In this document: positions 13,228 through 52,258 of the stretch, piece after piece | How positions within the stretch are numbered: position 1 is the first letter of the stretch | Layout of the letters: every line of letters begins with the position of its first letter | Source of the DNA: an uncultured Gammaproteobacteria bacterium | GTDB taxonomy: Bacteria; Patescibacteriota; Patescibacteriia; UBA9934 | Reading direction: 5' to 3' | Assembly (NCBI GenBank): GCA_964599455.1 | Contig: CAZREA010000001.1 | Location: forward strand, 7,687 to 71,686 | Length of the DNA: 64,000 nucleotides | Program-made: the position numbers and the translations under genes | Notes under the pieces: model-generated | Seen by the model: the letters and a program-made list of their open reading frames with translations, nothing else | Database searches by the model: none | What the model was told of the DNA's origin: nothing

Positions 13228-13310
13228 AGACAGACCCTGACGCCAGGAAGGGTCTAGCAAATGACTGTGACAAAGGAATGTTTTAGGCCCCTCCTGGCGT
13301 CGGGGTCTGT
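13228..13310. repeat. Palindromic MITE/REP-like element, family GACGCCAGGAGGGGCCTAG. Near-perfect 27-bp inverted arms (CAGACCCTGACGCCAGGAAGGGTCTAG / TAGGCCCCTCCTGGCGTCGGGGTCTG) separated by about 25 bp.
   Basis: Direct sequence comparison with copies at 22259-22480, 34423-34496, 38471-38507 and 52183-52258. Confidence 0.7.
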
Positions 13311-13324
13311 TCTTCTTCGTTCAT

Positions 13325-14704
13325 ATGCCTCTCTCCCTCTACAACACCCTCACTCGTTCTCAAGATACGTTTCATCCGATGAAACCTGGTCATGTTGGGC
13401 TTTATTCCTGTGGGCCAACAGTTTATTTTCGACCAACGATTGGTAACTATCGTTCGTTTTTATTTGCGGATACATTGCGACGCGTGTTGGAGGCGAATAA
13501 TTTTTCCGTAACACATGTCATGAATATTACCGATGTAGGGCATTTGGTCGGTGATGGTGATGATGGTGTTGATAAAGTACAAATGTCGGCAGAAAAAACC
13601 GGAAAAACTGCTTGGGATATTGCCGCTGAATACACAAAGATTTTTTTAGACGACATTCGCGCACTCAATATTGAAATGCCCCATGTCATGCCGAAGGCTA
13701 CGGATCACATTGCAGAACAAATCTCCATGATTCAAACAATGGAGGAGAAGGGTTTCACGTACCGCACGTCTGATGGAATATATTTTGACACTGCAAAACT
13801 GCCAACGTATGGCAGACTTTCTGGACAGAAGAGTGAAGAAAAAGAAGAAGGTGCACGTGTTGCGATCAATCCAGAGAAGCGAAATTCAAGTGACTTTGCA
13901 TTATGGAAATTTTCACCAGAAGATGCAAAACGTCATATGGAATGGGATTCTCCATGGGGAAAAGGTTTTCCTGGTTGGCATATTGAGTGTTCTGCGATGT
14001 CTGAAAAATATCTTGGCGTACCGTTCGATATTCACACCGGTGGTATCGACCACATTGCGGTACATCACGAAAACGAAATTGCGCAGACGATGGCGGCACG
14101 TGGTGTTTTGGAAGCAAATGTTTGGATGCATAATGAGTTCTTACTTATCGACGGCGGCCGCATGGGTAAGTCGCTTGGTAACGCATATACACTAGATGAC
14201 CTCACTGCAAAAGGTATCGAATTAATCGCATATCGACTATTCGTTCTCGGAGCACATTATCGATCGCAATTAAATTTCACCTGGGAGTCAGCACAGGCAG
14301 CACAAAATGCGTACGAAAAACTTTGTGATACGGTGCGCGAATGGGATCAGCCTTCCGTTATCGATCAGAAGTCTCTTGAGCGATTCATGGAGCGTGTGAA
14401 TGATGATTTGGATACTCCTGGAGCACTGGCGGTGATGTGGAATCTGGTGAAGGATGAATCCTTATCGACTGCTGTTCGCGCCGCAACACTTTTAGCAATG
14501 GATAAGATTTTCGGACTTGGTCTTGAGCAGATAATTGCAACGCCGATCATGATTCCTGATGAGCTCCAAAAGCTTCTTGATGAACGTGCGCAAGCTCGTC
14601 AAAACAAAAATTGGAGCGAATCGGATCGTCTTCGCGATGACATTGCTGCTTTAGGTTACGAAGTAAAAGACACGGCCGATGGCCAACGTGTGCGACGTGT
14701 TTAA
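13325..14704 (+). CDS. cysS: Cysteine--tRNA ligase
   Basis: Class I HIGH-type motif in CGPTVY context and KMSKS-type RMGKSLGN; N-terminal LYNTLTR typical of CysS. Confidence 0.95.
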   Translation: MPLSLYNTLTRSQDTFHPMKPGHVGLYSCGPTVYFRPTIGNYRSFLFADTLRRVLEANNFSVTHVMNITDVGHLVGDGDDGVDKVQMSAEKTGKTAWDIAAEYTKIFLDDIRALNIEMPHVMPKATDHIAEQISMIQTMEEKGFTYRTSDGIYFDTAKLPTYGRLSGQKSEEKEEGARVAINPEKRNSSDFALWKFSPEDAKRHMEWDSPWGKGFPGWHIECSAMSEKYLGVPFDIHTGGIDHIAVHHENEIAQTMAARGVLEANVWMHNEFLLIDGGRMGKSLGNAYTLDDLTAKGIELIAYRLFVLGAHYRSQLNFTWESAQAAQNAYEKLCDTVREWDQPSVIDQKSLERFMERVNDDLDTPGALAVMWNLVKDESLSTAVRAATLLAMDKIFGLGLEQIIATPIMIPDELQKLLDERAQARQNKNWSESDRLRDDIAALGYEVKDTADGQRVRRV

Positions 14705-16449
14705 GAGCGATGTTTTTCTTCGAGACGTTTGTGTTGTTCTGTGAAGAATCCTTTTTCTTTTCCGGTTTGTAGACCTGCGTCAAGCATGGCGTCTATTTTA
14801 TAGTCAATTCCTTGTTGTAGTGATGTTCTCCAAGCATGCAGGGGTCCATCTTCATCTTTTTCTAATGCCACAATTTTTTTTGCAGCCAGATCAAGCTCGA
14901 TTGCTTTGTCCCAAAGAGTTTCCATTTCTGAGGTGGATCGCATGCCAGTGTCTGGATCAGGGAGACCATCTTTTAAATCGGTAACGATATAGGTATTATC
15001 AAGATTTTTTATACTTGATCCCACAACGAGCGTTTGATTGCCAAATTCTACATAGGTTTGCGCGAATACATGGAGTGCTTCAACGGCTGCTTTTTGTGTT
15101 GGACGTGAAGCGTCTGCAAGGTCAAGCGCTCTGATGACACCCAGGGCAACGACAGATGTATCATCGAGATACCCCTCATAAATCGCTTCCCGTTCTTCAT
15201 GATAGCTATCGGGCAAGGTATCAAAATCATGATGAATGAGTTGAGCAAAGCTACCAGCAATAGTGAGCGTGGGTTGTACAAGTACGCCACCGCGTAATGC
15301 TTGACCATATAGCTTCAATTCTTCTTCAGAGTAACCGCTCACTGCCGCAAGAATGCTTCTTCCTTCTTTGTGTAAACCATATTGATTACCATACAATGCC
15401 TGACATCGGAATACATCAACAACCGTTTCCTGCACACCTTCTTCAGTTGCCATAGCCTTGCCACAATCTTCCATCATGCTTTGCAGCGGTCCGTTTCTTT
15501 CCGCTAATTCTTTGGTGAAGGCACGATCAATTTCCAAAAGCGCCTCAGCTCGCGTTTCTTGATGTCCATCAGCAAAAGTGAGAATGTCATTTTCAGAAGG
15601 GAGTTCAAAGGTAAAGCCCATTTCTTTGCCCCCAGACTCGAGCGGGGATATCTTGCTGACTTCATGGATGATTTCCGCCGTTCTCTCATTTCGTTCCGCA
15701 CGTCGTTCAACGCTCTGTGATGCAAGGAGAGGAATACCGATAAACGCGCTCGCCAATAATAAAGGCTTTGCCAACGGTGAAGATGTTATGCGATCTAAAA
15801 GTGAACGCCAAGATGAAGAGGATTTTGCTTTTTCAATTACCGTAGGCGACAAGGTATCTTTTTCTTGCTCTTCTGATCTTCCAATGATCTCTTTCGGAGG
15901 ATTATCTAACAGTAAGGGTTCTTGTAAGATATGAACAAATGTTTCTTGCGAAGGAAGAGGGGGAATTTCTTTTGCAGACGGATCTTCGGTAGTCGCTTCA
16001 TGTGATATCTCTTGTTCTGAAAATATCTCAGATTGCCCGGTTGCTTCCTGACGTTCATGCTGACCTTGAAGTTCTATGAGTTGTTTGCGTAACCGATCAC
16101 GGCTTGTTTTACGCCCGATGTCGAGAGCGACAATGAGATGACGTAAAGATCCGAGTTCTTTTTTCATCGTCGTGGCTTTTTGTTTGGCTTCTTGCCACTG
16201 TGTTTCGGTTTGATTGGCGACTGCACGAGCTTGAGATTCTGTGTGAAAGGTTTTTGTATCAGCTCCGGGTCGCACGATATTTCTCACTTCCCGATTGGCT
16301 TTGGTAAAGGCGTTAAAAGCAGCATCTGTTTCATCAAGGATATCGATATAACGAAGCATACGTTCCTGTTCTGCGATCGACCAGGACGTGGGATTGGGAT
16401 CCTTTTCTTGTACTGCTCGTTCAAGACCAGATGGCAGCAGAAATTCCAT
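14701..16449 (-). CDS. Hypothetical large protein with a central TM helix (coiled-coil N-terminal part, globular C-terminal part)
   Basis: ORF track; convergent with cysS. Confidence 0.45.
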   Translation of the reverse strand: MEFLLPSGLERAVQEKDPNPTSWSIAEQERMLRYIDILDETDAAFNAFTKANREVRNIVRPGADTKTFHTESQARAVANQTETQWQEAKQKATTMKKELGSLRHLIVALDIGRKTSRDRLRKQLIELQGQHERQEATGQSEIFSEQEISHEATTEDPSAKEIPPLPSQETFVHILQEPLLLDNPPKEIIGRSEEQEKDTLSPTVIEKAKSSSSWRSLLDRITSSPLAKPLLLASAFIGIPLLASQSVERRAERNERTAEIIHEVSKISPLESGGKEMGFTFELPSENDILTFADGHQETRAEALLEIDRAFTKELAERNGPLQSMMEDCGKAMATEEGVQETVVDVFRCQALYGNQYGLHKEGRSILAAVSGYSEEELKLYGQALRGGVLVQPTLTIAGSFAQLIHHDFDTLPDSYHEEREAIYEGYLDDTSVVALGVIRALDLADASRPTQKAAVEALHVFAQTYVEFGNQTLVVGSSIKNLDNTYIVTDLKDGLPDPDTGMRSTSEMETLWDKAIELDLAAKKIVALEKDEDGPLHAWRTSLQQGIDYKIDAMLDAGLQTGKEKGFFTEQHKRLEEKHRS

Positions 16450-16616
16450 ATAGTCGTATTTTATCGCACTTCAGCGATTTCTTACGGAAGTCTTGCACAG
16501 GGTCTTGGATATTTTTGGCTAAAAATAAATAAAAAATCCCTGATTCTTCAATCGGGGATTTTTTAAGCACTCGAGTTAATAATAGCAGAAAAATGGGCTT
16601 TTGTCCATGTTTTTGC

Positions 16617-17480: not shown

Positions 17481-17910
17481 CGCTAAATCCCCGATTTACA
17501 CAGCCCGAAGCCATGAAAAGAGCGCTACCTGCGAGTGCGGCATCTTTCAAAAGTCCCATAAGCGACATTTGACCGCCACCGGCCAAGAGTCCAGGAAGAT
17601 GAATGATGAGTACAAACAGTCCAAGTTCAACGGCTAACAATGTTGCTGCCAATTTTGCGTATCGATTGATAACAATGGCGATGGCGCTCAAAATCAATCC
17701 TGCTCCTGAGAGATACACAAAGAAGAGCGGTGCGGGCCAACCGGCGAGCATACCCGTCATCATTTGGCCGTTGATAAAATGAAAGATACCAAAAATAAAG
17801 AGGGGAGTAGCAAACAGCCATCGTCCAGCCATTTGCAATTGCCCGTCACGACCTGCGCTGGGACCACAACCACACGAACCTTTCTCTGCACAGCATGAGC
17901 CATTCATCAT
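17455..17910 (-). CDS. DoxX-like small integral membrane protein (start uncertain; could be 17832)
   Basis: Four hydrophobic helices, length and topology like the DoxX/SURF4 family; the upstream Cys-rich stretch may be non-coding. Confidence 0.4.
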   Translation of the reverse strand: MMNGSCCAEKGSCGCGPSAGRDGQLQMAGRWLFATPLFIFGIFHFINGQMMTGMLAGWPAPLFFVYLSGAGLILSAIAIVINRYAKLAATLLAVELGLFVLIIHLPGLLAGGGQMSLMGLLKDAALAGSALFMASGCVNRGFSVATTEEKK

Positions 17911-17964
17911 AAAAAAGATGTTAAAATATACCTGGTTAATACGATAGCATGCTATACTTTTTCT

Positions 17965-18451: not shown

Positions 18452-21040
18452 GTGGCCAAACAAACTTCCTCTTTTGATCCCGCGGCAGTTGCCTACAGCG
18501 AGAGCTTTGCCTATGACCAGGTTTCTCCGCTCATTCCTTTTCTTTTTTTGACGATTATTGTTTTGATAATCGGTTGGACGGCCTTATTTTTTATTCGCAA
18601 GCGTGCAGCCGAGGCCCGACGATTGGGTGGCGGCGATGATGCGCCGGTCACGCTGCGCATCATGTTACCAAAATTTTCAAACGAAGAAGATGCACGTGCG
18701 CGTGAAGTCCAGCAAACAACAAAAGAAAAAATTGGTGTTGCCGAAACACTGTTTGCGGCGTTTGGGGGCTTGAAGCCTGCACACGGACTCAAGCATTGGT
18801 TATTGGCACATGAAGATGTGTTTGCACTTGAACTTGTCGCGCATCAAAAATTGGTTACGTTTTACGCAACGGTTGCAAAAAAACATCAACACTTTTTTGA
18901 ACAACAAGTGCACGCCCAGTGGAGTAGCGCGTATATTGAAGAAGTGGATGATTACAATATCTTTTCTCCCAAGGGCGTGATTGTGGCGGGGTATATTATT
19001 CAAAAACGGGAAAGTGTTTTACCGATTAAAACATATAAGGATTTAGAGGCCGATCCATTAAATGCGCTCACCAATGCGTTGTCGCAAGTTGCTGATGGTG
19101 ATGGCGTGGTGGTGCAGTATATTTTGCGACCAACCCATGGTCATTGGCGTGAACTTGGTCAAAGAATTGTGCGCAACATGCATGCCGGCTTAAGTTTTTC
19201 GCAAGCAAAAAAAGGGAAACCAAGCCGAGGACTTTTAGAATCAAAAGAGGATTTTGACAAACGTGAGGCAAAACTTCGTGAACATAAACTTTCGGCGCTC
19301 GAAAATAAGATGCTTGAAGGCATTGAACAGAAAATTTCCAAAGCGGGTCTTGAAGCCAATATTCGGGTGGTTGCTTCGGCGCAAACTGCCGAGGCCGCAC
19401 AGGCGTATTTGGGGAATGTGTTGCAGGCATTTGGCCAATACAGTATTTACGAATATGGGAATAGTTTTGATAAACATATCCCTTCGTCAAAAAAGGAGAT
19501 TCTCAATAACTTTATTTTCCGTCAATTTAGCAAGAATCATCGCCTTATTTTAAATACCGAAGAGCTTGCGAGCTTGTGGCACCTGCCGCTGCCGACAACC
19601 GAAACACCGAATATTGAGTGGCTGCTCGCCAAAACTGCACCTCCACCAACAAATACGCCGTCAACCGGCCTTCATCTTGGTTTTAATGCCTATCGTGGCA
19701 AGCGAACCGAAGTCTTCATGAAGGAAGCTGATCGTCGTCGGCACATGTACATCATTGGTAAGACCGGTTCGGGTAAATCGGAGTTTATTAAAAATTTGGT
19801 GGCACAAGATATTAAAGAAGGCAAAGGTGTCGGTGTTATTGATCCGCACGGTGATTTGGCTGATGGTATTTTGGAACTTATTCCCAAAGAGCGTGTTGAT
19901 GATGTTGTCTATTTCAATCCATCTGACATGGAATATCCGATGGGGTTGAACATGCTCGAGGTTCCGCTTTCGGAAGAAGATGCCAAGCTTGATCCTGAAG
20001 AGCAACGCAAAATTCTTGCCAATCAACGCGATTTTGCCGTGCAAGAAATGATCAATATTTTCTACATGTTGTTCCCACCGGAAATGATTGGTCCGATGTT
20101 CGAGCACAACATGCGCAACTACATGCTTACGTTGATGGCTGATCCAGAGAATCCTGGTACGATTGTGGAAATTCCGCGCATGATTGCCGATGAAAAATTC
20201 CAAAAGCAATGGGTTTCCAAGGTTACCGATCCGGTGGTCAAATCCTTCTGGGAAGATGAAATGGCCAAAACATCCGACTATCACAAGAGTGAAATGATGG
20301 GCTACTTGGTTTCGAAAGTCGGTCGTTTTGTAGAAAACGAAATGATGCGCAATATCATTGGTCAAACCAAGTCTGCCTTTGATTTCCGTAAAATCATGGA
20401 CGAGAAAAAGATTTTGTTGGTCAATCTTTCCAAGGGTCAAACCGGTGAAGTAAACGCATCGCTCTTAGGTTTGATTATCGTTGCCAAGTTACAGATGGCG
20501 GCTTTCCGTCGTGCCGATATTCCTGAAGAAAAGCGTCAGGACTTCTATCTGTATATCGACGAGTTCCAAAACTTCATCACCCCCTCAATCGCAACGATTC
20601 TTTCTGAGGCACGTAAATATCGTCTCGACCTTATCATGGCTCACCAGTACATGGGTCAGTTGGTCAAAGATGGCAAGAGCGAAATTCGTGATGCCGTGCT
20701 TGGTAACGTGGGTAGTACGTTTGTGGCACGTGTGGGTCCTGAAGATGTGGAAGTGCTCGGTAAAATTTACGAACCCGTGTTTTCGAAATTCGATTTGATG
20801 AACACTGATAAATTTACATGGAACGTCAAGCTGATTATCGACAACGCCCAAGAAAAGCCATTTACCATGAAGGCCTACCCGCCAATCAAGGGAAATGCGC
20901 GTGTGGCCGAACTCTTAAAAGACATTTCGCGTTTGCAATACGGTCGTCCACGTGAAGAGGTTGAGAAAGATATCCTTGAACGCGCTGGTTTGAATAAGAA
21001 AAAGGAGATCGCCATGCCCGCACCTCCGCCGGTGTTTTAA
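18452..21040 (+). CDS. Membrane-anchored P-loop NTPase of the VirD4/TraG/TraD coupling-protein or HerA/DUF87-like class (862 aa)
   Basis: N-terminal TM helix; Walker A IIGKTGSGKSEF followed by IDPHGDLADGI; Walker B YIDEFQNF; EARKYRLDLIMAHQ arginine-finger/Q motif typical of the FtsK-HerA-VirD4 superfamily. Confidence 0.7.
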   Translation: MAKQTSSFDPAAVAYSESFAYDQVSPLIPFLFLTIIVLIIGWTALFFIRKRAAEARRLGGGDDAPVTLRIMLPKFSNEEDARAREVQQTTKEKIGVAETLFAAFGGLKPAHGLKHWLLAHEDVFALELVAHQKLVTFYATVAKKHQHFFEQQVHAQWSSAYIEEVDDYNIFSPKGVIVAGYIIQKRESVLPIKTYKDLEADPLNALTNALSQVADGDGVVVQYILRPTHGHWRELGQRIVRNMHAGLSFSQAKKGKPSRGLLESKEDFDKREAKLREHKLSALENKMLEGIEQKISKAGLEANIRVVASAQTAEAAQAYLGNVLQAFGQYSIYEYGNSFDKHIPSSKKEILNNFIFRQFSKNHRLILNTEELASLWHLPLPTTETPNIEWLLAKTAPPPTNTPSTGLHLGFNAYRGKRTEVFMKEADRRRHMYIIGKTGSGKSEFIKNLVAQDIKEGKGVGVIDPHGDLADGILELIPKERVDDVVYFNPSDMEYPMGLNMLEVPLSEEDAKLDPEEQRKILANQRDFAVQEMINIFYMLFPPEMIGPMFEHNMRNYMLTLMADPENPGTIVEIPRMIADEKFQKQWVSKVTDPVVKSFWEDEMAKTSDYHKSEMMGYLVSKVGRFVENEMMRNIIGQTKSAFDFRKIMDEKKILLVNLSKGQTGEVNASLLGLIIVAKLQMAAFRRADIPEEKRQDFYLYIDEFQNFITPSIATILSEARKYRLDLIMAHQYMGQLVKDGKSEIRDAVLGNVGSTFVARVGPEDVEVLGKIYEPVFSKFDLMNTDKFTWNVKLIIDNAQEKPFTMKAYPPIKGNARVAELLKDISRLQYGRPREEVEKDILERAGLNKKKEIAMPAPPPVF

Positions 21041-21046
21041 GGAAAT

Positions 21047-21168
21047 ACAGATTTACACAGATCGAAAAGATTAAGACAGATGACATACTGTGGAAGAGGG
21101 CCTGTAAAGCAAGATGTTTCTCTGCTACCTTTTGATCCGTCGTATTTTATTGATTTGTGTAAATCTGT
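21047..21168. repeat. Intergenic element bounded by ACAGATTTACACAGAT (21047-21062) and its inverse ATTTGTGTAAATCTGT (21153-21168). Fills the whole gap between the ATPase stop and the dnaX start.
   Basis: Direct sequence comparison with the 3105/3301 pair and the 55809 copy. Confidence 0.55.
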
Positions 21169-21173
21169 GTCCT

Positions 21174-22841
21174 ATGTCCTCCGACGTCCTTTTCCGCAAA
21201 TACCGACCCCAGCAATTCTCCGATGTTGCCGAACAGGAGCATGTCGTACGCACGATCCAAAATCAATTAGCGCAAGACATGATTGCGCAAGTGTATTTGT
21301 TTTCTGGACCGCGCGGAGTAGGAAAGACGACGATCGCGCGGTTGCTGGCAAAAGCATTGAATTGCGAAGGGCGACAAAAAGGACAGAGTGAGCCTTGTGG
21401 GACATGTGCATCGTGTACGGATTTTGCGTTTGGGCGAATGATGGATGTGATTGAAATTGATGCGGCATCGCAGACCGGCGTTGATGCAGTGCGAGAAAAC
21501 ATTATTGAAGGTGTTCGCTTTAGCCCGACACGCGGTAAATACAAGATTTTCATCATTGATGAAGTGCACATGCTGTCGACGGCATCCTTTAATGCACTTT
21601 TAAAAACGCTCGAAGAACCGCCAAAGCATGCGATTTTTATTTTAGCTACCACAGAACTGCATAAAATCCCTGCGACCGTTATTTCTCGCTGTCAGCGTTT
21701 TGTGTTTAAGCATATTCCGGCAGCGGCCATGATTGAGCGTTTAAAAACGTTGGCGATACGTGAAAAAAGGGAAGTTGATGATCACGTGCTTGCACAAATT
21801 GCTCGTTTGTCTGAGGGTTGTTTGCGTGATGCGGAGAGTTTGCTCGGGCAAGTGTTTGCGATTACTGATGAGCGGGTGACCCTCGGCAATGCATCATTGG
21901 TTTTGCCGGTCACGCATGCAACGGCGGTTGCCGACATGGTTACGCATCTTGCAAGCGGCGATGTTTCCACTGCGATCAACGTGTTGAATACGACGGTTGC
22001 CAGCGGTGCATCGGTGAAGCATTTGCATGATGAACTTTTAGAATATGCACGAGCCGTTTTGCTACAAACATTAGGGGGACTTGATCACGAGCGTTTTGAT
22101 GGCGAGTCGTTGGAGCGAATCAAGACAACGGCAACGCAGTTGCAATTGGCCGGAGCAACACGATTACTTGATGAGCTCTTGTCAGCTCGTGGTCGCAGTA
22201 CGCCATCTTTGTTTCCGCAAGTCGCATTAGAGATTGCGTTTGTGAAGGCTAGTGTCATCCCGACGCCAGGAGGGATCTCGAACTCGGCGAATATTTCTCT
22301 TCAGCAACGAACAGACTCCGACGCCAGGAGGAGCCTAGAAAATCCTCTTAAGAAACAAGAAAATCAACCAGGAGAAATAGATATTCCTCAGCAAAATTCT
22401 CAACCATTCCAAGAACCTCCGAAGGAATCTGCTAGATCCTTCCAGCCTGCCCTGAGTGAACGCGAAGGGTCAGGGTCTGATGCTCCTACCCCTTCGTCCC
22501 CTTCTGAATCCTCCACACCCCTCTCTTCCTCTGACCTTCGCGACAAATGGGGTCGCTGTTTGGAAAAAGCCAAGGCATCTGCAGGTCCGGGTTTTGGACT
22601 GGTGCTCGGCGTGGCCGAGTTTGTTGAAGTACAGGATGGCCGTGTGGTTGTTGTTTCGTTTCCTTACCAAATGCATCTCGATAAAATGAAAGATGCCAAG
22701 AATGCGCGTTTACTGCGTGATGCTATTGCGGAAATTGCCATGATGCCCGACATCGAGCTTTCATGTATTCTTGGCAAAAGAGCCGCTGCTGAAGATGAAG
22801 TAGGAACATTACTGGCTGAGTTTGGCGGGAGTGTGGTGTAA
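21174..22841 (+). CDS. dnaX: DNA polymerase III subunit gamma/tau. Carries an in-frame low-complexity insertion derived from the palindromic repeat family.
   Basis: GPRGVGKTT Walker A, clamp-loader motifs, Zn module CGTCASC; the provided ORF start at 21114 trimmed to the ATG at 21174 (MSSDVLFRKYRP). Confidence 0.9.
   Translation: MSSDVLFRKYRPQQFSDVAEQEHVVRTIQNQLAQDMIAQVYLFSGPRGVGKTTIARLLAKALNCEGRQKGQSEPCGTCASCTDFAFGRMMDVIEIDAASQTGVDAVRENIIEGVRFSPTRGKYKIFIIDEVHMLSTASFNALLKTLEEPPKHAIFILATTELHKIPATVISRCQRFVFKHIPAAAMIERLKTLAIREKREVDDHVLAQIARLSEGCLRDAESLLGQVFAITDERVTLGNASLVLPVTHATAVADMVTHLASGDVSTAINVLNTTVASGASVKHLHDELLEYARAVLLQTLGGLDHERFDGESLERIKTTATQLQLAGATRLLDELLSARGRSTPSLFPQVALEIAFVKASVIPTPGGISNSANISLQQRTDSDARRSLENPLKKQENQPGEIDIPQQNSQPFQEPPKESARSFQPALSEREGSGSDAPTPSSPSESSTPLSSSDLRDKWGRCLEKAKASAGPGFGLVLGVAEFVEVQDGRVVVVSFPYQMHLDKMKDAKNARLLRDAIAEIAMMPDIELSCILGKRAAAEDEVGTLLAEFGGSVV
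22259..22480. repeat. Copy or copies of the GACGCCAGGAGG palindromic element embedded in-frame in the dnaX linker. It is translated as a Pro/Ser/Gln-rich segment including SDARRSLENP.
   Basis: Left cores CCGACGCCAGGAGGGATCT (22261) and CAGACTCCGACGCCAGGAGGAGCCTAGAAAATCCTC (22312), right-arm remnant CTGCTAGATCCTTCC (22428). Confidence 0.65.
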
Positions 22842-32504: not shown

Positions 32505-33114
32505 GTGTTTTTCCCAGTTGTTCTCCGACCCACGTATAAAAATTAACAACTGATGGTGCTTCCAAAGAGAAAAGCGTTTTTTTAGGTTCATCGGTTGGGG
32601 GGAGCGTATCGATTTCCCGTGCTTCATTCGCTGCAATGACGATATCTCCTCGTTCCGGTTGGTAAACGATGACGGTGCCTTCCAAAACGGAAATTTGGAT
32701 TTTATCAAGCCATGGGTAATGAACGAGCGTTGCCAGACCATCAACAACAATCGTCGTTACTCTACTTGTGAAGGTTGCATCGCCCGATACCACGATGCGT
32801 CCATCAAGAAAAGTAAATGTTTCTTGCTCTTTACGACCATCGTCGAATAACAGAGAAGTATTCTGGTCAAGAAGAATAATCGTGCCGTCGATGCGATACG
32901 AGGCAAACTCGTTCGTAGTGGTGGTCACGGTTTCGCCGCGAATGTAGCTCCGCATGCCGTCATGAAGTGAGGAGTTGATGGGTTCGAGATTTTGATGAGA
33001 AGGGCCTCCGAGGCGGTTAGCGAGTAAAAGAATAAGAGCAATAGCGACAATAATGACAATAAGCCCGATGGTTCTTGCGGATAACTTTGTTGCTGAAAAG
33101 AGGGGTGATTGCAT
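32470..33114 (-). CDS. Hypothetical N-terminally anchored exported protein (beta-rich)
   Basis: ORF track; single N-terminal TM helix. Confidence 0.4.
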   Translation of the reverse strand: MQSPLFSATKLSARTIGLIVIIVAIALILLLANRLGGPSHQNLEPINSSLHDGMRSYIRGETVTTTTNEFASYRIDGTIILLDQNTSLLFDDGRKEQETFTFLDGRIVVSGDATFTSRVTTIVVDGLATLVHYPWLDKIQISVLEGTVIVYQPERGDIVIAANEAREIDTLPPTDEPKKTLFSLEAPSVVNFYTWVGEQLGKTLIPQTPDGAGE

Positions 33115-33130
33115 ACCGTGTGGTCAAGAT

Positions 33131-34000
33131 ATGAGAAGTTTCCCCAATCGTATCACAGCTTTTCGAAGAAAGCTTCTCGCTTGGTTTCGTATTGTCGGCA
33201 GAGATTTGCCTTGGCGACAAACGCATGATCCTTACGCGATCGTGGTTTCTGAAATTATGTTGCAACAAACCCAGGTCGATCGCGTCATTCCCAAATACCA
33301 GGCCTGGCTTCAGACGTTTCCTACTTGGGAAATATTAGCAAAAGCATCGACCACTGATGTATTAAAGGCGTGGAGCGGACTTGGATATAATCGTCGTGCG
33401 TTGATGCTGCAACGTCTGGCACAAACGATTGTTGTGCGTGGGAGTTTTCCGCAGGAGATCGATGACATGATCAAACTTCCCGGTATCGGACCCTACACCG
33501 CACATGCCGTTGCTGCCTTTGCTTTTCAAAAGAAAGGTGCAGCGCCGGTCGATACCAATATTGATCGCGTGCTGCGTCGGGTTTTCGGTAGACGTGACGC
33601 ACGTAAAAAAGAGATTGCCGAGCTCGCGCAAACGGTTGCGCCCAAAGATGTGTGGTCGTGGAATCATGCGCTGATGGATTTGGGTGCAACCAAGTGCATG
33701 GCACGAAATCCAAAATGCGAAACCTGCCCTCTTAAAGATATCTGTTTGTCATATCCCTGCATCGGAGATGATATTGTGAAAGTGAAGCAGAAGAAGTTTG
33801 AGGGTTCTGATCGGATGTATCGAGGGAAAATAGTAAAGATGTTGCAGGGAAGGGAGTTTTTACCGGTCCGGCAATTGGGAAGGCTGTTGGATTTGACGGA
33901 TAAAGAACGGATGAAACGGATTCTTGATGGGCTTGTAAAGGATGGATTTATTATTGTTGATGCACAGGGTTCTCTTCGGATTGCGGATAAGAATAGGTAG
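33131..34000 (+). CDS. HhH-GPD base-excision DNA glycosylase with 4Fe-4S cluster loop (MutY/Nth family; A/G-specific adenine glycosylase-like) plus C-terminal winged-helix-like extension
   Basis: LPGIGPYTA HhH, catalytic Asp context, CxxxxxxCxxCxxxxxC cluster; start trimmed to the ATG at 33131. Confidence 0.8.
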   Translation: MRSFPNRITAFRRKLLAWFRIVGRDLPWRQTHDPYAIVVSEIMLQQTQVDRVIPKYQAWLQTFPTWEILAKASTTDVLKAWSGLGYNRRALMLQRLAQTIVVRGSFPQEIDDMIKLPGIGPYTAHAVAAFAFQKKGAAPVDTNIDRVLRRVFGRRDARKKEIAELAQTVAPKDVWSWNHALMDLGATKCMARNPKCETCPLKDICLSYPCIGDDIVKVKQKKFEGSDRMYRGKIVKMLQGREFLPVRQLGRLLDLTDKERMKRILDGLVKDGFIIVDAQGSLRIADKNR

Positions 34001-34152
34001 AATGAAAAAGATCCTGACGCTAGGAAGGATCTATCATGACCATAAGCGATTGTTGCTCCGAAGGAATTTTTCTAGACCCTTCCTCTTCGCTTCACTCAGA
34101 GTCAGGGTTTTCCTCATCCGTTGTATCCGTCTTTAATCCGTCCTATCAGTTT

Positions 34153-34419
34153 ATGCTATACGAATTCTACGGTGACACCTGCCCGCACTGCATTGTCATG
34201 AAATCCATGGTGGAGAAACTTGAAAAAGAACTTGGTCTTACGGTTGAAAAGTTTGAAGTGTGGAATAATGAAGAAAATGCTAAAAAGATGGAAGAAATTG
34301 ATCGAGGCCTTTGTGGTGGTGTGCCGTTTTTTTACAATACCGATTCTGAGCAGTTTATCTGTGGATCAGCCGATGAAGAAACGCTCAGAAAATGGATGAA
34401 AGGCGAGAAGGTTGCGTAG
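34153..34419 (+). CDS. Thioredoxin-fold small redox protein (glutaredoxin/thioredoxin-like, CPHC active site)
   Basis: FYGDTCPHC motif, length about 88 aa from the internal ATG. Confidence 0.6.
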   Translation: MLYEFYGDTCPHCIVMKSMVEKLEKELGLTVEKFEVWNNEENAKKMEEIDRGLCGGVPFFYNTDSEQFICGSADEETLRKWMKGEKVA

Positions 34420-34422
34420 AAA

Positions 34423-34496
34423 AGACCTCGACGCCAGGAGAGGCCTAGAAAATTCCTGCGAAAGAATTTGCTAGATCCTTCCTGACGTCAGGATCT
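34423..34496. repeat. Palindromic MITE/REP-like element (GACGCCAGGAGAGGCCTAG ... CTAGATCCTTCCTGACGTCAGGATC) followed by a T-run; acts as or replaces a terminator
   Basis: Direct comparison with family copies. A partial hairpin of the same family lies at 34003-34030 (AGATCCTGACGCTAGGAAGGATCT). Confidence 0.7.
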
Positions 34497-34501
34497 TTTT
34501 C

Positions 34502-35392
34502 ATGCGATCTCTATCCATTCTTATTACAGGCTTTCTTTTACTGGGCGCTGGCTGCACCCCTTCTTTTGGTGCGACATTTTTTTCTGCAGAGGATTTAGGA
34601 TTTGCCGAAAATACCATGATCGTTCTTGAACAAACCTATCTTGGCATCAATCATCCCCTTTCTGATCAGGGAAAAAAGACGGTTACCATCTCTTCTTGGA
34701 ATCCTTCTGTGAGCGCGACGTTGTCTTGGATTCAGCAAGATCAACAAGAAACTGCTGAATCTCGGGCGGCGCGTGAAGCGGCTTTGCAGGCGCCAGTAGG
34801 ATCGGAGACAACAGTGCCTGATCCTGTTTATGAAACAGTGACAACCCAAGGAACGATTACGACTGATGCACTCGATGATGCTTCAGCTATCCTGCTGCCA
34901 AAAGATTGGACTGCAGGAGATCAGAATCTTTCTGGGCAAGGCAATGGCGTATTGTGGCTATCAAAGAAACAGTATGAAGAGTTGATTCAAACGCGATCAA
35001 CGCACCTTACCCTTGGCGCCTTTGATGCGGCACTGCAAAAGATTCATGACCTTTCCACAACCGCGCAACATGCACTGGCGGCATTACAAGGTACAGAAGC
35101 AAGTCAGCAAAACGATGCTTTAGGTGATGCAACCAAAATAACTGCCGACGCTGATTGGGGAACGATGACGCTGAGGCTTAATGATCAGCAAGTAAAAGTA
35201 AAAACCGTGACTGCGCAAAATGCGTTTGCTGCATATGTCATTTTGGCAAATCCTAACAATCCTCTTATTCTTAAAGTTACGCCCAAACCTTGGGCCCTTG
35301 GTATCGGTGTTTTTTCTGGCTCAGCATTCTGGCAACAGTTGGCTGGCTATGTGGTGACGCAGATTACGGTTTCTCCTTCTTCTCAACCATGA
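34502..35392 (+). CDS. Putative lipoprotein (signal peptide with LLGAGC lipobox), function unknown
   Basis: N-terminal signal/lipobox; ORF track. Confidence 0.5.
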   Translation: MRSLSILITGFLLLGAGCTPSFGATFFSAEDLGFAENTMIVLEQTYLGINHPLSDQGKKTVTISSWNPSVSATLSWIQQDQQETAESRAAREAALQAPVGSETTVPDPVYETVTTQGTITTDALDDASAILLPKDWTAGDQNLSGQGNGVLWLSKKQYEELIQTRSTHLTLGAFDAALQKIHDLSTTAQHALAALQGTEASQQNDALGDATKITADADWGTMTLRLNDQQVKVKTVTAQNAFAAYVILANPNNPLILKVTPKPWALGIGVFSGSAFWQQLAGYVVTQITVSPSSQP

Positions 35393-37798: not shown

Positions 37799-37830
37799 AA
37801 AATACCGCCCAAACGGGCGGTATTTTTTAT
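37797..37830. terminator. Bidirectional rho-independent terminator (ATACCGCCC-AAAC-GGGCGGTAT flanked by A-run and T-run) between convergent genes
   Basis: Sequence inspection. Confidence 0.7.
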
Positions 37831-38999
37831 CGATGGATAAGTTTAGTAACCACCTCGACATGCGGTGTGTGCGGGAACATGTCGATTGCACGGATGCTTT
37901 CGACCTCGTAACTTTTCGAGAGAATAACTAGTTCACGAGCAAGATTTTTGTAATTGCAGGACACGTAAACAATTTCTTTTGGCGCATTCGGTTTCATGAG
38001 ATCGTCGAGCGTGGTGGGATGAAGACCAGCGCGAGGGGGATCGATAATGGCGATGTCGGCGTTGTAGGCCAGCCAATCGATGTTTTCGGTGGGTGAGGCA
38101 AGATATTCTATGGTATCTTGCAGATTATTTAATTCGGCATTCACGTGAGCATCCTTAATTGCATCGGCAACGAGCTCGATACCGATGGTGCGTTTGGCAT
38201 CTTTTGCAAGAGCAATCGAAAAGAATCCCGTGCCACAATACAGATCAAGTAGTGTTTTATCTGAGAGGTCGCCGACGAATTCTCGCACGGTATCAAGAAG
38301 TGCTGATGCGGCATGAGGATTTGTTTGAAAGAAGGCATTAGGAGAAATACGATAGCGATAGCCGCTAATGTTTTCTTCAATGCATCCATCACCGAAAATA
38401 ACGTGCATTTCGTCGCCGTATGATACGTCCGAGGCGGTGTGATTGACTGTCCATAGAATTGTCGGATGAACAGACCCCGACGCCAGGAGGGGCCTAGAAG
38501 ATTTCTGTGTCAGTTCCGTGAGATTCTCTAATGCCATTTCAATTTTTCTTTTTTCACTATCATCCGTTGGCGTACTTGTGACAATCGTGATTATCGCTTG
38601 TCCAAGCGTCGTTGAACGAATGACGGCATAACGCAAGCATCCCACATTTGCTTTGCGATCATAAAAAGACAGTCCTGCTGTTTTCGTCCAATCGCGTACA
38701 ATATGAAAAAGCTCTTCAATACGTTCATCGGCGAGAAAGCAGGTATGGTCATCGATGACTCTCCACCATTTGCCTTTTTCCCGCAGCCCCACACTTCCTT
38801 GCCAATCAATCACAAAGTCCATGCGATTGCGATAGTGTGTAGTTTTTGGCGAAGCAATGATTTCCTCAATGCGAAGATCAAGGTTTTTGATTTTGAATGA
38901 ACCGTTAATATCGGAAAGTTTTTGCTGAAGCTGCTTTTGATAGGGAATGTGACTCCAACCACAGGAGCCACAAACGTCGGGATGAGGGCAGGGGGACAT
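37827..38999 (-). CDS. 23S rRNA (uracil-5)-methyltransferase, RlmD/RumA (TrmA) family. Has an N-terminal Cys cluster and carries an in-frame insertion from the palindromic repeat family.
   Basis: CxxxxxCGxC Fe-S/TRAM region, SAM-binding LDLYCGTG, DPPRAG motif; start trimmed to MSPCPHP. Confidence 0.85.
   Translation of the reverse strand: MSPCPHPDVCGSCGWSHIPYQKQLQQKLSDINGSFKIKNLDLRIEEIIASPKTTHYRNRMDFVIDWQGSVGLREKGKWWRVIDDHTCFLADERIEELFHIVRDWTKTAGLSFYDRKANVGCLRYAVIRSTTLGQAIITIVTSTPTDDSEKRKIEMALENLTELTQKSSRPLLASGSVHPTILWTVNHTASDVSYGDEMHVIFGDGCIEENISGYRYRISPNAFFQTNPHAASALLDTVREFVGDLSDKTLLDLYCGTGFFSIALAKDAKRTIGIELVADAIKDAHVNAELNNLQDTIEYLASPTENIDWLAYNADIAIIDPPRAGLHPTTLDDLMKPNAPKEIVYVSCNYKNLARELVILSKSYEVESIRAIDMFPHTPHVEVVTKLIHR
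38471..38507. repeat. Left arm of the palindromic element (CAGACCCCGACGCCAGGAGGGGCCTAGAAGA) lying in-frame inside the methyltransferase gene, where it encodes SSRPLLASGSVHP
   Basis: Direct comparison with family copies; reading-frame check on the minus strand. Confidence 0.65.
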
Positions 39000-39074
39000 A
39001 GAGAGGGGAAAGAAGGAATTGAGGGGAGAAGGGGGATGGAGGATGAGAACAGGGACTAGCCCCACTGGCCTTCT

Positions 39075-48708: not shown

Positions 48709-48713
48709 GTACC

Positions 48714-49370
48714 ATGTCTTTTATGAAAATATTGCGATATGTTCTGATTATTTTTCTTATCGGAATAATTTGTTTTCTTGGAATAAACATCTACATCCTC
48801 CAATCAACCAAAAACACCATCGTCACCGATCCTGAACTTACATCCGTCATCATTGTTCTTGGTGCAGGATTAAAGCCCGATGGAACACCGTCGGATGTTT
48901 TAAGAGATCGATTGAAGGTTGGAATTAAACTCTACAAAGAAGGGAAGGGAACGAAGCTACTTTTCTCGGGTGATAATGGACAGGTGCGATATGACGAAGT
49001 GAATGCCATGCGGGTCTTTGCGCTCAGTCAAGATATTCCCGAAGAGGATATTTTTCTCGATCATGCCGGTTTTGATACCTACGACACGATGTATCGCGCG
49101 AGACGTATTTTTGGCGTTACCGATGCCATTGTTGTGACGCAAGATTTTCATTTACCGCGTGCACTCTATGTTGCTGAGGCACTTGGGATACAAGTGCAAG
49201 GTGTCTCTGCGGATTTACAGCCTTATCTTTCTCGAACGCAGCAATATGCTCGTGAATGGTTAGCTCGACCAAAGATATTCATCGACATTCTTTTTGGCGC
49301 AAAGTCGAAGTATCTGGGAGATTCCATTGATATTACTGGTGATGGTCGACTTACGTGGGATGAGTTTTAA
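48714..49370 (+). CDS. DUF218/SanA(ElyC)-family envelope protein with N-terminal TM helix
   Basis: VIIVLGAGL...LFSGDNG...EVNAMRVFA...DHAGFDTYDTMYRAR matches the SanA/YdcF core. Confidence 0.7.
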   Translation: MSFMKILRYVLIIFLIGIICFLGINIYILQSTKNTIVTDPELTSVIIVLGAGLKPDGTPSDVLRDRLKVGIKLYKEGKGTKLLFSGDNGQVRYDEVNAMRVFALSQDIPEEDIFLDHAGFDTYDTMYRARRIFGVTDAIVVTQDFHLPRALYVAEALGIQVQGVSADLQPYLSRTQQYAREWLARPKIFIDILFGAKSKYLGDSIDITGDGRLTWDEF

Positions 49371-49663
49371 ATGCACAAACGCCGCCCTGTACGAAGGGCG
49401 GCGCCGAAGACGGGTTTGGTTATGAACCGTCTTTGCTGTCGTGTTCAGGATGGTGGCAGCCTTAGAAAGGGGATCTCCCCGTTGTAGAAATCGAGTATGG
49501 CACGCGTATTGGGAGAAAGAGATGTTGCAAAAAGCATCTTTTGGCAAATACTGGTTTATCTTACCTTGCCCACCCAGCTCCACTAGCCCGCCTTTTCTCT
49601 GGATATTTCCCTAACCTCTGTACATTTTTTGGTTTTCCTGCTAGGTTCTAGCGGGAGGTGTTC

Positions 49664-49828
49664 ATGCGTCGGAACCAATATAAGAAGACTGTGCTCGGAC
49701 TTGGGCCGCTCGAAGTTGTAGCCATCCTGATCGTCCTTGCTTTTACGATTGCTTTGGCGCATCTTGCTGGCCCCCACGACTCGTCGTGGCGAGACCTGAT
49801 CCCGGCCGAGTGGTGGCGTTTTCTCTAG
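49664..49828 (+). CDS. Small single-TM peptide (54 aa) in the about 550-bp leader upstream of alaS; good SD GGGAGGTG
   Basis: Manual translation; not in the ORF track (<60 aa). Confidence 0.3.
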   Translation: MRRNQYKKTVLGLGPLEVVAILIVLAFTIALAHLAGPHDSSWRDLIPAEWWRFL

Positions 49829-49927
49829 AGCCTTTGGCTCGTATCGTGACCGTTCTGCCTTTTGCCGGACGGTCATGTTCCTTTTTTAGGGAAATTTCGG
49901 TATTCTAGCTCTCGACTCTTTTCTATG

Positions 49928-51805: not shown

Positions 51806-51879
51806 TTTGACGGTTTTTCTTTAATCCTTTATTATTTTACCGCTTTCAGTTGAAGCTGAAACGCGTCCAAAACGCCATT

Positions 51880-52095
51880 ATGGCGGAAAAGCAATTTCTC
51901 GAAATGCGTGGTACTGTCCTTGAGGCACTGCCCGCTGGCGCGTTCCGCGTCAAATTGGAAAATGAGATGGTGATTACGGCATATCTTGCCGGCAAGCTCC
52001 GTCAGAATCGTATCCGGGTGATGCCCGGCGACGAGGTCAAGTGTGAGATTAGTCCATACGATCTCACCAAGGCACGAATCACGTTCCGGTTTTGA
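51880..52095 (+). CDS. infA: Translation initiation factor IF-1
   Basis: S1-like OB fold, [31 protein letters not shown]; start trimmed to MAEKQ. Confidence 0.85.
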
Positions 52096-52182
52096 ACCTT
52101 ACCCGTTCATTACCGAGCGGCATCTCGCGCTTGTGCAAAATCATCCGGTTTTTTGTGCCTGGGTGATTTTGTATAAAAAGGA

Positions 52183-52258
52183 CAGACCCCGACGCCAGGA
52201 GGGGCCTAGCAGACCCTTTTTGAAAGAATCCTTTAGATCCTTCCTGGCGTCAGGATCT
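52183..52258. repeat. Full-length palindromic MITE/REP-like element (CAGACCCCGACGCCAGGAGGGGCCTAG ... AGATCCTTCCTGGCGTCAGGATCTG) in the infA-rpmJ spacer
   Basis: Direct comparison with family copies. Confidence 0.75.

What the first reader, a model, noticed from the sequence alone, without database searches (positions are those of the whole stretch)
13228..52258. Family of palindromic MITE/REP-like elements (core GACGCCAGGAGGGGCCTAG), including in-frame insertions inside dnaX and an rRNA methyltransferase gene
The same 75-85 bp palindromic unit recurs at six or more loci. Its layout is left arm CAGACCCCGACGCCAGGAGGGGCCTAG, then about 25 bp, then right arm containing the reverse complement CCTGGCGTCAGG. 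The three spacer copies replace or augment terminators; the fourth full copy is entirely in-frame inside dnaX:
- 13228-13310: between a hypothetical gene and cysS (spacer copy).
- 34423-34496: after the thioredoxin-like gene (spacer copy).
- 52183-52258: between infA and rpmJ (spacer copy).
- 34003-34030: a partial hairpin of the same family.

Two copies lie inside coding sequence without breaking the reading frame.
- In dnaX (22259-22480) a full copy plus an extra left core encodes a Pro/Ser/Gln-rich disordered linker (PTPGGISNS...SDARRSLENPLKK...), between the clamp-loader core and the C-terminal domain.
- In the RlmD-like methyltransferase (38471-38507, minus strand) the left arm encodes SSRPLLASGSVHP, between the TRAM/Fe-S region and the SAM domain.

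The same peptide RPLLASGSV appears in a spurious ORF over the 13228 copy. This shows the element has a frame-tolerant coding potential. In-frame repeat insertion into essential genes is uncommon, and it points to recent mobility of a small non-autonomous element.
Basis: seen in the sequence. Interest (0 to 1): 0.75.

Follow-up and report, generated by a model that had tools for sequence, protein, structure and literature searches.

The report
Hairpin repeat family invading bacterial genes
A small-genome Patescibacteria (CPR) bacterium carries a family of short hairpin-forming DNA repeats, of the REP/REPIN or Rickettsia-palindromic-element kind, that fill spacers between genes and in two cases sit in frame inside essential genes (dnaX and rlmD), where they add harmless-looking loops; the kind is known, but it has not been described in this group.

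Summary
A covariance model finds exactly 10 hairpin units at 6 loci in the window (E <= 2e-8; next hit E = 0.55).

**What the unit is.** The basic unit is not the 80-bp palindrome but a ~30-nt hairpin. It has a 5-7 bp stem that varies by compensatory changes, and a near-invariant cap GACG-NN-AGGA.

**Where the units lie.**
- Three loci hold inverted doublets (about 81-85 nt, REPIN-like) in spacers between co-directional genes.
- One doublet, enlarged by about 69 nt and 21 nt of extra internal sequence, plus one single unit, lies in frame in the DnaX linker.
- One single unit is a 12-aa insert in RlmD. It is absent from 119 orthologs and falls in a low-confidence surface loop.
- One single unit lies between a glycosylase gene and trx; a syntenic relative has no unit there.

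**Best reading.** This is a non-autonomous REP/REPIN/RPE-like palindromic repeat family. Coding copies survive only in permissive linkers.

**What is not shown.**
- Recent mobility: there are no identical full copies, no target duplications and no transposase.
- A terminator role: only one of three spacer copies has a T-run.

**Unexpected.** A sister unit, GTCATCCC-GACGCCAGGA-GGGATCT, recurs unchanged in Bacteroidota, Patescibacteria and other contigs of 34-69% GC.

The parts
13228..13312 (.). Inverted doublet (units 13229-13258 + and 13282-13311 -) in the 145-nt spacer between a hypothetical ORF (12151-13179) and cysS (13325-14704).
   Evidence: cmsearch E 4.2e-10 and 8.6e-10. Folds as one long hairpin: RNA -56.8 kcal/mol, z -8.6; DNA -26.1 kcal/mol, z -6.2.
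22252..22281 (+). Single unit of the GTCATCCC...GGGATCT subtype, in frame in dnaX. It encodes VIPTPGGIS (aa 381-389) at the start of the linker after domain III.
   Evidence: Best cmsearch hit in the window, 44 bits, E 4.9e-12. Translation. The same subtype occurs in the dnaX linkers of relatives L122 and L125.
22311..22478 (+). Enlarged doublet in frame in dnaX (168 nt, 56 codons, TDSDARRSLEN...EREGSGS). Left unit at 22310-22339; spacer enlarged by about 69 nt; right arm split into 22430-22443 and 22468-22478 by 21 nt of extra sequence in its cap.
   Evidence: Alignment A7 against the three spacer doublets; D5 repeat; frame check; cmsearch E 1.2e-8 for the left unit.
34006..34035 (+). Single unit filling the 35-nt spacer between the HhH-GPD glycosylase gene (33053-34000) and the thioredoxin gene (34036-34419). 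Its 3' half contains AGGAAGGA, 6 nt before the ATG.
   Evidence: cmsearch E 2.4e-9. RNA fold -13.5 kcal/mol, z -4.6. The syntenic relative L126 has an 18-nt spacer with no unit.
34418..34500 (.). Inverted doublet (units 34420-34449 + and 34470-34499 -) filling the whole 82-nt spacer between trx and ORF 34502-35392. It is the only copy followed by a T-run (TCTTTTTC).
   Evidence: cmsearch E 1.9e-8 and 1.4e-9; folds; weak terminator-like match at 34480-34493.
38465..38512 (.). Half element (unit 38469-38498 on the + strand) inside the RumA/RlmD-like methyltransferase gene (37827-39065, - strand). It encodes KSSRPLLASGSV, a 12-aa insert.
   Evidence: cmsearch E 1.2e-9. 48 nt are 90% complementary to 13268-13315 (I1). 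The insert is absent from 15 orthologs (A3) and is the only such insert among 120 orthologs. It falls in coil 169-180, where pLDDT is about 61, in the AlphaFold model.
52176..52266 (.). Inverted doublet (units 52181-52210 + and 52232-52261 -) in the 177-nt spacer between infA (51850-52095) and rpmJ (52273-52386).
   Evidence: cmsearch E 9.6e-10 and 1.4e-10. The two arms have different stems (AGACCCC/GGGGCCT against AGATCCT/AGGATCT), each self-complementary. Folds.

Best explanation
This is a family of non-autonomous palindromic repeats of the REP/REPIN kind in a Patescibacteria (CPR) genome.

**Structure.**
- The unit is a ~30-nt hairpin with a 5-7 bp stem whose sequence is free to change as long as it stays paired.
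- The stem is capped by GACG-NN-AGGA. This cap is predicted, not shown, to stack as tandem G.A pairs, one C-G pair and a GNNA tetraloop.
- Units occur singly or as inverted pairs about 25 nt apart. On a single strand of DNA or RNA, a pair folds into one long hairpin.

**How it spreads (inferred).** The family spread by insertion of units or doublets, most likely through a hairpin-recognising, trans-acting enzyme as for REPINs. No such enzyme was found.

**Where copies survive.** Copies persist where they do little harm:
- short spacers inside operons;
- coding sequence, provided the insert keeps the frame, avoids its own CTAG stop, and lands in a disordered linker (DnaX, between the clamp-loader core and the C-terminal domain) or a surface loop (RlmD).

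**Shown.**
- The family is real and its copies are placed as listed.
- The local hairpin is supported by covariation.
- The RlmD insert and the trx-upstream unit are lineage-specific.
- Hairpins are gained patchily in DnaX linkers.

**Inferred.**
- The mode of transposition.
- That effects on the host are neutral or mild. Possible effects are mRNA hairpins in operon spacers, and an SD-like AGGAGG/AGGAAGG inside the hairpin.
For: **The family is real.**
- 7 core matches against 0.01 expected.
- 10 units with a clean score gap to noise.

**The local hairpin is supported.** On 51 arms:
- 79.8% of cells are paired against 70.2% in shuffles;
- 43 cells show a double-sided change against 14 in shuffles;
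- 0 of 500 shuffles reach the observed value;
- slid controls give 20-58% paired.
- Within single elements the two arms carry different, internally complementary stems.

**The cap.** It is invariant except for its two middle bases, and one arm shows a C-G to G-C swap.

**Doublets fold as long hairpins.** z is -5.3 to -8.6 as RNA and -3.5 to -6.2 as DNA.

**Insertions are lineage-specific.**
- RlmD: a 12-aa insert absent from orthologs, lying in a low-pLDDT coil, where the PDB homolog 2jjq aligns to gaps.
- Relative L126 has an empty HhH-GPD-trx spacer.
- DnaX hairpins are present in the window, P0002 and P0004/P0005 but absent from six orthologs whose core is 81-86% identical to P0004. They sit in different frames and positions.

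**Other genomes.**
- The exact window-type unit lies inside a ~30-aa insert of a TatD-like gene in another metagenome contig.
- In groundwater contigs that are probably CPR, units and doublets sit in spacers of the suf, tsaD-tsaE and macB operons.
- IS110-family transposases abut units in two contigs, as is known for REP-targeting IS110/IS1111 elements (the targeting habit is from my own knowledge).

**Precedent.** Intragenic REPs are documented (PMC3733652).
Against: - No transposase (RAYT or other) was found in the window ORFs scanned, in the called genes of L121 and L181, which include about 9.5 kb beyond the window, or enriched among 113 ORFs next to units in other contigs.
- No target-site duplications are visible.
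- No two full copies are identical, so activity may be ancient.
- The whole-genome copy number is unknown. There are no units in window 1-13,000, in 52,300-64,000, or in the next ~9.5 kb.
- Neither the GTAG tag of classical REPs nor the end-placed CGTC tag is present.
- A conserved cap shared across phyla would fit a host-selected function as well as a selfish element.
- Single units of the GTCATCCC subtype are not more stable than shuffled sequence under standard energy rules.
Confidence: 0.8

Rival explanations
1. The hairpin is a host-selected cis-acting element, kept at each site for its function rather than spread as selfish DNA. It could be the binding site of a conserved protein or RNase, an mRNA stabiliser or attenuator within operons, or a translation regulator that hides an SD-like AGGAGG.
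For: - The cap is invariant across phyla and the stems covary.
- Copies sit in intercistronic spacers of operons.
- Unit 34006-34035 carries the probable SD of trx in its 3' stem.
- In Fibrella the unit is flanked by T and A runs, like a bidirectional terminator. In a Spirosoma plasmid a copy lies between convergent genes.
Against: - Copies lie in either orientation relative to transcription; the rlmD mRNA carries the complementary strand.
- Copies occur inside ORFs in several reading frames.
- Presence is patchy among close relatives.
- Only one of three spacer copies has a T-run.
- There is no Rfam match.
- This reading is not exclusive with the main one: REPs are both mobile and co-opted.
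Confidence: 0.25
2. It is a classical MITE: an internally deleted DDE-type insertion sequence, whose arms are terminal inverted repeats recognised by a transposase encoded by a full-length element elsewhere in the genome.
For: - The arms are terminal inverted repeats of about 27-30 nt, and the element is small.
- A second MITE-like family in the window has ends beginning with the same ACAGA.
- Relatives carry other ~85-nt palindromic elements with ends GTGTCAT....
Against: - No target-site duplication is visible.
- Single arms occur alone at three loci.
- Each arm is itself a covarying hairpin, which a DDE terminal repeat does not need.
- No full-length parent was seen in any fetched locus.
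Confidence: 0.15
3. The hairpins in the dnaX linker are a recoding or pausing signal at the gamma/tau boundary, which is why relatives keep them at the nucleotide level.
For: - The hairpins lie just after domain III in four DnaX orthologs and are kept as DNA although read in different frames.
- The unit contains AGGAGG, and stops follow soon in both alternative frames.
- E. coli dnaX uses an SD-like element plus a hairpin for frameshifting (my own knowledge).
Against: - No slippery heptamer or homopolymer run lies at a suitable distance (read by eye).
- The same units occur in spacers, in rlmD and in a TatD-like gene.
- Six orthologs whose core is 81-86% identical to P0004 lack them.
- Positions differ by 2 to 22 codons.
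Confidence: 0.04
4. The pattern is chance similarity or an assembly artefact.
For: None beyond the short length of the motif.
Against: - 7 matches against 0.01 expected.
- A clean cmsearch score gap.
- Identical sequence in two independent assemblies.
- Related units in many other genomes.
Confidence: 0.01

Closest known systems
REPINs / BIMEs (inverted doublets of REP sequences; Bertels & Rainey 2011, PMC3116915)
   Same: - Two short hairpin-forming units in inverted orientation with a short spacer.
- They fold into a long hairpin on a single strand.
- Singletons look like remnants of doublets.
- Copies sit between co-directional genes inside operons.
- There is no coding capacity and no target duplication.
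   Different: - There is no GTAG tag.
- The conserved part is the cap of the hairpin, not its foot.
- No RAYT gene was found, though only about 73 kb of the genome could be read.
- Copies also lie inside ORFs.
- A sister subtype is shared across phyla, whereas REPIN populations are described as lineage-specific and vertically inherited (abstracts).
Rickettsia palindromic elements (RPEs) and intragenic REPs (Di Nocera et al. 2013, PMC3733652)
   Same: - Palindromic repeats inserted in frame into housekeeping genes of a small-genome bacterium.
- They add peptide segments in permissive regions.
- REPs inside replication and repair genes are reported.
   Different: - The sequence is unrelated.
- RPEs are longer (100-150 bp, from my own knowledge) and, as CGTC-type REPs, carry CGTC at one end of the palindrome. 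Here GACG/CGTC sits inside the cap.
- The host is Patescibacteria, not Rickettsia.
- dnaX is not among the genes named in that paper.
Bacterial MITEs (for example Correia/NEMIS elements and Coxiella MITEs, PMC5896051; review PMC10969869)
   Same: Small size, terminal inverted repeats, and both intergenic and occasional in-frame intragenic copies.
   Different: - No target-site duplication and no parent IS were found.
- Arms occur singly and are covarying hairpins.
REP-targeting IS110/IS1111 insertion sequences (for example IS621, ISPpu9/10; my own knowledge)
   Same: Two metagenome contigs have an IS110-family transposase directly next to a unit (L159, L177). This is how such IS elements sit relative to REP-like hairpins.
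   Different: These are the users or targets of the hairpin, not the hairpin family itself. None is in the window.

Membership tests
Classical GTAG-type REP | A 20-40 nt imperfect palindrome that forms a stem-loop. | tested here: met
   A 7-bp stem plus a 10-nt cap, with covariation on 51 arms.
Classical GTAG-type REP | A conserved GTAG tetranucleotide at one end of the palindrome (PMC3733652). | tested here: not met
   The window subtype has CTAG next to the stem; the GTCATCCC subtype has neither.
Classical GTAG-type REP / REPIN | A RAYT (Y1 HUH transposase) gene in the genome, typically flanked by the repeats. | not testable with these tools
   Only about 73 kb of the 481-kb contig could be read. 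No transposase was seen in the window ORFs scanned, in the called genes of the flanking loci, or enriched among 113 neighbouring ORFs elsewhere.
REPIN | Two REP units in inverted orientation, separated by a short spacer, able to form one long hairpin. | tested here: met
   Doublets at 13228, 34418, 52176 and 22311; folds with z from -5.3 to -8.6.
REPIN | Many near-identical copies per genome (a replicating population with a master sequence). | tested here: inconclusive
   There are 10 units at 6 loci in 64 kb and none in the next 9.5 kb. Arms share up to 27-29 nt exactly, but whole copies are 68-82% alike. The whole genome was not available.
CGTC-type REP (includes RPE-4 and RPE-6) | CGTC at one end of the palindrome, an 8-9 bp stem, a 4-5 nt loop and a CCA-like tail (PMC3733652). 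| tested here: not met
   GACG/CGTC lies inside the cap, next to the stem on the loop side. The stem is 5-7 bp, the cap is 10 nt, and there is no CCA tail.
MITE | Terminal inverted repeats on a short non-coding element. | tested here: met
   Arms of 27-30 nt.
MITE | Target-site duplication flanking the element. | tested here: not met
   No direct repeat flanks any of the copies, by inspection.
MITE | A full-length IS with the same ends. | tested here: inconclusive
   None was seen in the window or in the fetched loci. The genome-wide search could not be run.
Rickettsia palindromic element | In-frame insertion of a palindromic repeat into protein-coding genes. | tested here: met
   Seen in dnaX, rlmD and a TatD-like gene in L176. 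This is a likeness of behaviour only; the sequences are unrelated.
Intrinsic terminator | A GC-rich hairpin directly followed by a U-run on the transcribed strand. | tested here: not met
   Only the 34418-34500 copy has a T-run. The scans give only weak 5-pair matches that overlap the elements.
Any Rfam family | A match at or above the family's gathering score. | tested here: not met
   Only three tRNAs pass. At E <= 10, one chance-level miRNA-model hit lies over 13228-13322.

The most novel reading that the evidence does not exclude
The hairpin is one face of an old, cross-phylum module. Its stem is variable and its cap GACG-NN-AGGA is invariant, probably structured as tandem G.A pairs, a C-G pair and a GNNA loop. 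An as yet unidentified, widely conserved factor (a transposase or a host protein) recognises the module. It has colonised very different bacteria (Spirosoma and Fibrella isolates, Patescibacteria, a gammaproteobacterial MAG, a cyanobacterium) with a 26-nt sequence unchanged. In CPR bacteria it repeatedly builds new linker and loop segments in essential proteins such as DnaX.
Probability: 0.2. Interest if true: 0.7.

Novelty: new member of a known kind. Interest (0 to 1): 0.45.

Why it matters
- CPR/Patescibacteria genomes are small and are usually regarded as poor in repeats. A REP-like family that fills operon spacers and writes extra peptide segments into DnaX, RlmD and a TatD-like protein shows that selfish or semi-domesticated hairpin DNA shapes even these genomes.
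- It also explains some of the odd low-complexity inserts and spurious small ORFs in their annotations.
- The same capped hairpin recurs in unrelated phyla. That is unusual for REP-type repeats, and it would give a handle for finding the enzyme or host factor that recognises it.

Tried and rejected
1. **Genome-collection scan wasted.** The scan with the 16-mer CCYGACGCCAGGARGG used too short a pattern. Only about a dozen loci were real family members.
2. **Rfam** at gathering and at E <= 10: nothing relevant.
3. **Viral contigs, phage records and plasmids:**
   - no match in IMG/VR or in the phage records;
   - only Spirosoma plasmids match, at intergenic sites with no transposase nearby.
4. 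**Search for a RAYT or other transposase:**
   - Pfam on 113 ORFs next to units, and on ORFs bracketed by units, gave housekeeping genes only, plus two IS110 transposases;
   - the window ORFs that were scanned gave none.
5. **Walking further along the source genome.** One end could not be looked up, the other gave 9.5 kb with no further unit, and the 481-kb NCBI contig could not be fetched.
6. **Nested insertion of a second repeat family in the right arm of the dnaX doublet.** The 20-mer CCCTGAGTGAACGCGAAGGG has no other copy in the window or in the fetched loci. Its origin stays unknown.
7. **dnaX frameshift signal.** No slippery site was found by eye, so this is kept only as a low-probability rival.
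8. **Literature.** Searches for the sequence itself and for REP/MITE in CPR found no description.

Full report
**Observation**

BLAST and repeat finding recover the same loci. I built a covariance model from 51 aligned arms. With filters off it finds exactly ten units in the window (E from 4.9e-12 to 1.9e-8), and the next hit is at E = 0.55.

The units fall at six loci:
- Inverted doublets at 13228-13312, 34418-34500 and 52176-52266.
- A single unit at 34006-34035.
- A single unit at 22252-22281 plus an enlarged doublet at 22311-22478, both inside dnaX.
- A half element at 38465-38512 inside the RumA/RlmD-like gene on the minus strand.

Two independent Logan assemblies are identical to the window across the 13228 and dnaX copies, so this is not an assembly artefact.

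**Host and genes**

DnaX and RlmD homologs are overwhelmingly from Patescibacteria and 'Candidatus Uhrbacteria'. The window comes from a 481-kb contig of such a genome.

Pfam confirms these genes:
- dnaX, with DNA_pol3_delta2, AAA and gamma domain III;
- the tRNA_U5-meth_tr methyltransferase;
- cysS;
- an HhH-GPD glycosylase;
- thioredoxin;
- infA, alaS and rpsM.

The remaining ORFs examined are ordinary housekeeping genes, and none is a transposase.

Orthologs all start at M22 of the dnaX ORF. The real start is therefore probably 21177.

**Anatomy**

- Arms of one element differ from each other, yet each stays self-complementary. An example is 52181-52210 (AGACCCC/GGGGCCT) against 52232-52261 (AGATCCT/AGGATCT). 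Other arms carry AGACCCT/AGGGTCT, AGACTCC/GGAGCCT and AGACCTC/GAGGCCT.
- On 51 arms from the window, relatives and other contigs, the 7-bp stem is 79.8% paired against 70.2% in column shuffles.
- There are 43 doubly changed cells against 14 in shuffles (0 of 500 shuffles reach this), and 20-58% pairing when the partner is slid.
- These arms were partly selected by patterns that favour pairing, so the window's own ten arms, found by the cap alone, are the cleaner evidence.
- The 10-nt cap is GACG-NN-AGGA, and only its two middle bases vary.
- One arm shows a C-G to G-C swap at cap positions 3 and 8.
- This pattern is what a stacked cap (tandem G.A pairs, a C-G pair, a GNNA loop) would give. That is an inference, not a measurement.
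- Doublets fold as one long hairpin: RNA -33 to -57 kcal/mol with z -5.3 to -8.6, and DNA z -3.5 to -6.2.
- Single units are only modestly stable.

**Coding copies**

*RlmD*
- The window protein has a 12-residue insert, KSSRPLLASGSV (residues 167-178 of the 391-aa form).
- The insert is missing from 15 orthologs of 63-73% identity. It is the only such segment among 120 orthologs.
- The same inter-domain loop has collected different small inserts in a few other lineages.
- In an AlphaFold model (mean pLDDT 83) the insert is the coil between helix 148-168 and strand 181-187, and pLDDT dips to about 61 there.
- The closest solved homolog, 2jjq, aligns to gaps at that place.

*DnaX*
- The single unit encodes VIPTPGGIS directly after domain III.
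- Alignment with the three spacer doublets shows that 22311-22478 is a complete doublet. It has about 69 nt of extra sequence in its spacer and 21 nt in the cap of its right arm, and its total length is 168 nt (56 codons), so the frame is kept.

*Frames*
- A single unit is open in four of six frames, because CTAG gives a stop in one frame on each strand.
- Different hosts use different frames. The constraint is therefore on the nucleic acid, not on the peptide.

**Relatives**
- The dnaX genes of P0002 (core 75% identical to the window) and of P0004/P0005 each carry an inverted pair of GTCATCCC-type units in the linker. They are read in other frames and sit 2 to 22 codons from the conserved end of domain III.
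- Six orthologs whose core is 81-86% identical to P0004 have none.
- This patchiness favours repeated gain in a permissive linker over an ancient conserved signal.
- A syntenic relative (L126) has the same glycosylase-thioredoxin pair with an 18-nt spacer and no unit.
- The exact window-type unit sits inside a ~30-aa insert of a TatD-like protein on an unrelated metagenome contig.

**Wider distribution**
- A metagenome scan for the unit with degenerate stems returned 52 contigs of 34-69% GC.
- They are dominated by one sequence, tGTCATCCC-GACGCCAGGA-GGGATCT, often as inverted pairs 55-100 nt apart.
- Many come from Hainich groundwater, and one of them matches a contig of a Patescibacteria MAG (L051). 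There, units and doublets occupy spacers of the suf, tsaD-tsaE and macB operons.
- The same 26-mer occurs in:
  - Spirosoma and Fibrella isolates, including plasmids;
  - a Bacteroidales MAG;
  - a Patescibacteria MAG.
- Variant units with the same cap but different flanks occur in a gammaproteobacterial MAG and in Hormoscilla.
- None was found in viral contigs or phage records.
- I have no explanation for this conservation across phyla.

**Mobilising enzyme**
- None was found.
- 113 ORFs next to units show no enrichment of any transposase.
- ORFs bracketed by units are housekeeping genes.
- Two IS110-family transposases directly abut a unit (L159, L177). This fits the known habit of IS110/IS1111 elements of inserting into REP-like hairpins (my own knowledge), but it does not explain the family.
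- No target-site duplication is visible.
- Whole copies in the window are 68-82% alike, with arms sharing up to 29 nt exactly.
- Mobility at some time is well supported. Recent mobility is not.

**Terminator idea**
- All spacer copies lie between co-directional genes, ending 1 to 13 nt before the next start codon.
- Only 34418-34500 is followed by a T-run.
- The scans give only weak partial matches.
- The unit 34006-34035 contains AGGAAGGA 6 nt before the trx start, where the relative has GGAGGA. The element may therefore supply and partly mask the ribosome-binding site. This is an inference.

**Comparison with known families**

The family works like REPs/REPINs and, for its coding copies, like Rickettsia palindromic elements and the intragenic REPs described by Di Nocera et al. 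(PMC3733652).

It fails the defining tags of both REP superfamilies:
- It has no GTAG.
- GACG/CGTC lies inside the cap instead of at one end.

It also lacks the duplication and the parent IS expected of a MITE. Rfam has no matching family. Full-text searches found no description of REP- or MITE-like repeats in CPR bacteria, nor of this sequence.

I therefore file it as a new member of a known kind. It has one feature worth following up: the cross-phylum capped hairpin.

Noticed in passing
window 3105-3316, 21047-21168, 55809-55843: A second MITE-like repeat family with ends ACAGATTTACACAGATC: 5 hits against 0.21 expected. Two inverted pairs bound elements of about 212 and 122 nt in intergenic regions, and there is one solitary end after rpsI. 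Its ends begin with the same ACAGA as the main family.
   Followed up: partly
window 21114-21176: The first 21 codons of the dnaX ORF are probably not translated. All orthologs start at the M at 21177, and an arm of the second repeat family (21152-21168) lies in this stretch.
   Followed up: partly
L128-L179, L014, L023, L051, L095, L098, L180 (for example L014 4667-4753): The 26-nt hairpin tGTCATCCC-GACGCCAGGA-GGGATCT is identical in contigs of 34-69% GC and in genomes labelled Bacteroidota (Spirosoma and Fibrella isolates, including plasmids) and Patescibacteria. Variant units with the same cap occur in a gammaproteobacterial MAG (L007). It often forms ~90-nt inverted doublets. REP families are normally lineage-specific.
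   Followed up: partly
L177 310-1656(-) with units at 192 and 1865; L159 188-1159(+) with unit 1166-1195: IS110-family transposases (DEDD_Tnp_IS110 plus Transposase_20) lie directly next to a hairpin unit in two metagenome contigs. L177 has ~100-nt terminal direct repeats, as if circular or tandem.
   Followed up: partly
L176 2711-3583(-), unit at 3315-3344: A TatD-like hydrolase on a 242-kb metagenome contig has a ~30-aa insert relative to solved TatD/YcfH structures. The insert contains the exact window-type unit, read as LDPDARRGLE.
   Followed up: yes
window 34006-34035 and L126 (orthologous spacer, about 15838-15855): The single unit upstream of trx carries AGGAAGGA 6 nt before the ATG, inside its 3' stem. 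The relative without the unit has GGAGGA there. The repeat may supply and mask the ribosome-binding site.
   Followed up: no
L126 16778-16861; proteins P0015, P0076, P0077, P0190: Other hairpin-repeat families appear in related CPR genomes. One is an ~85-nt palindromic element with ends GTGTCATTCTGAGGGAG. Repeat-like peptides also sit inside DnaX and RlmD orthologs: VIPAQAGIH, HRHPGLDPGS and SLDPRLHGINGD.
   Followed up: no
window 60335-60362 and 60405-60432: A 28-nt, 96% complementary inverted repeat lies between two glycosyltransferase ORFs, and its second arm overlaps the start of the downstream ORF.
   Followed up: no
window 22444-22467: The cap of the right arm of the dnaX doublet is replaced by 26 nt. 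These 26 nt can form their own small hairpin (CCCT GAGTGAACGCGA AGGG). No other copy was found in the window or in the fetched loci.
   Followed up: yes
window 18452-21040 with L122 2597-5173 and L125 7371-9968: A large ORF with DUF8128, T4SS-DNA_transf and DUF87 domains lies immediately upstream of dnaX in the window and in both relatives. This gene pairing is conserved in the clade.
   Followed up: no
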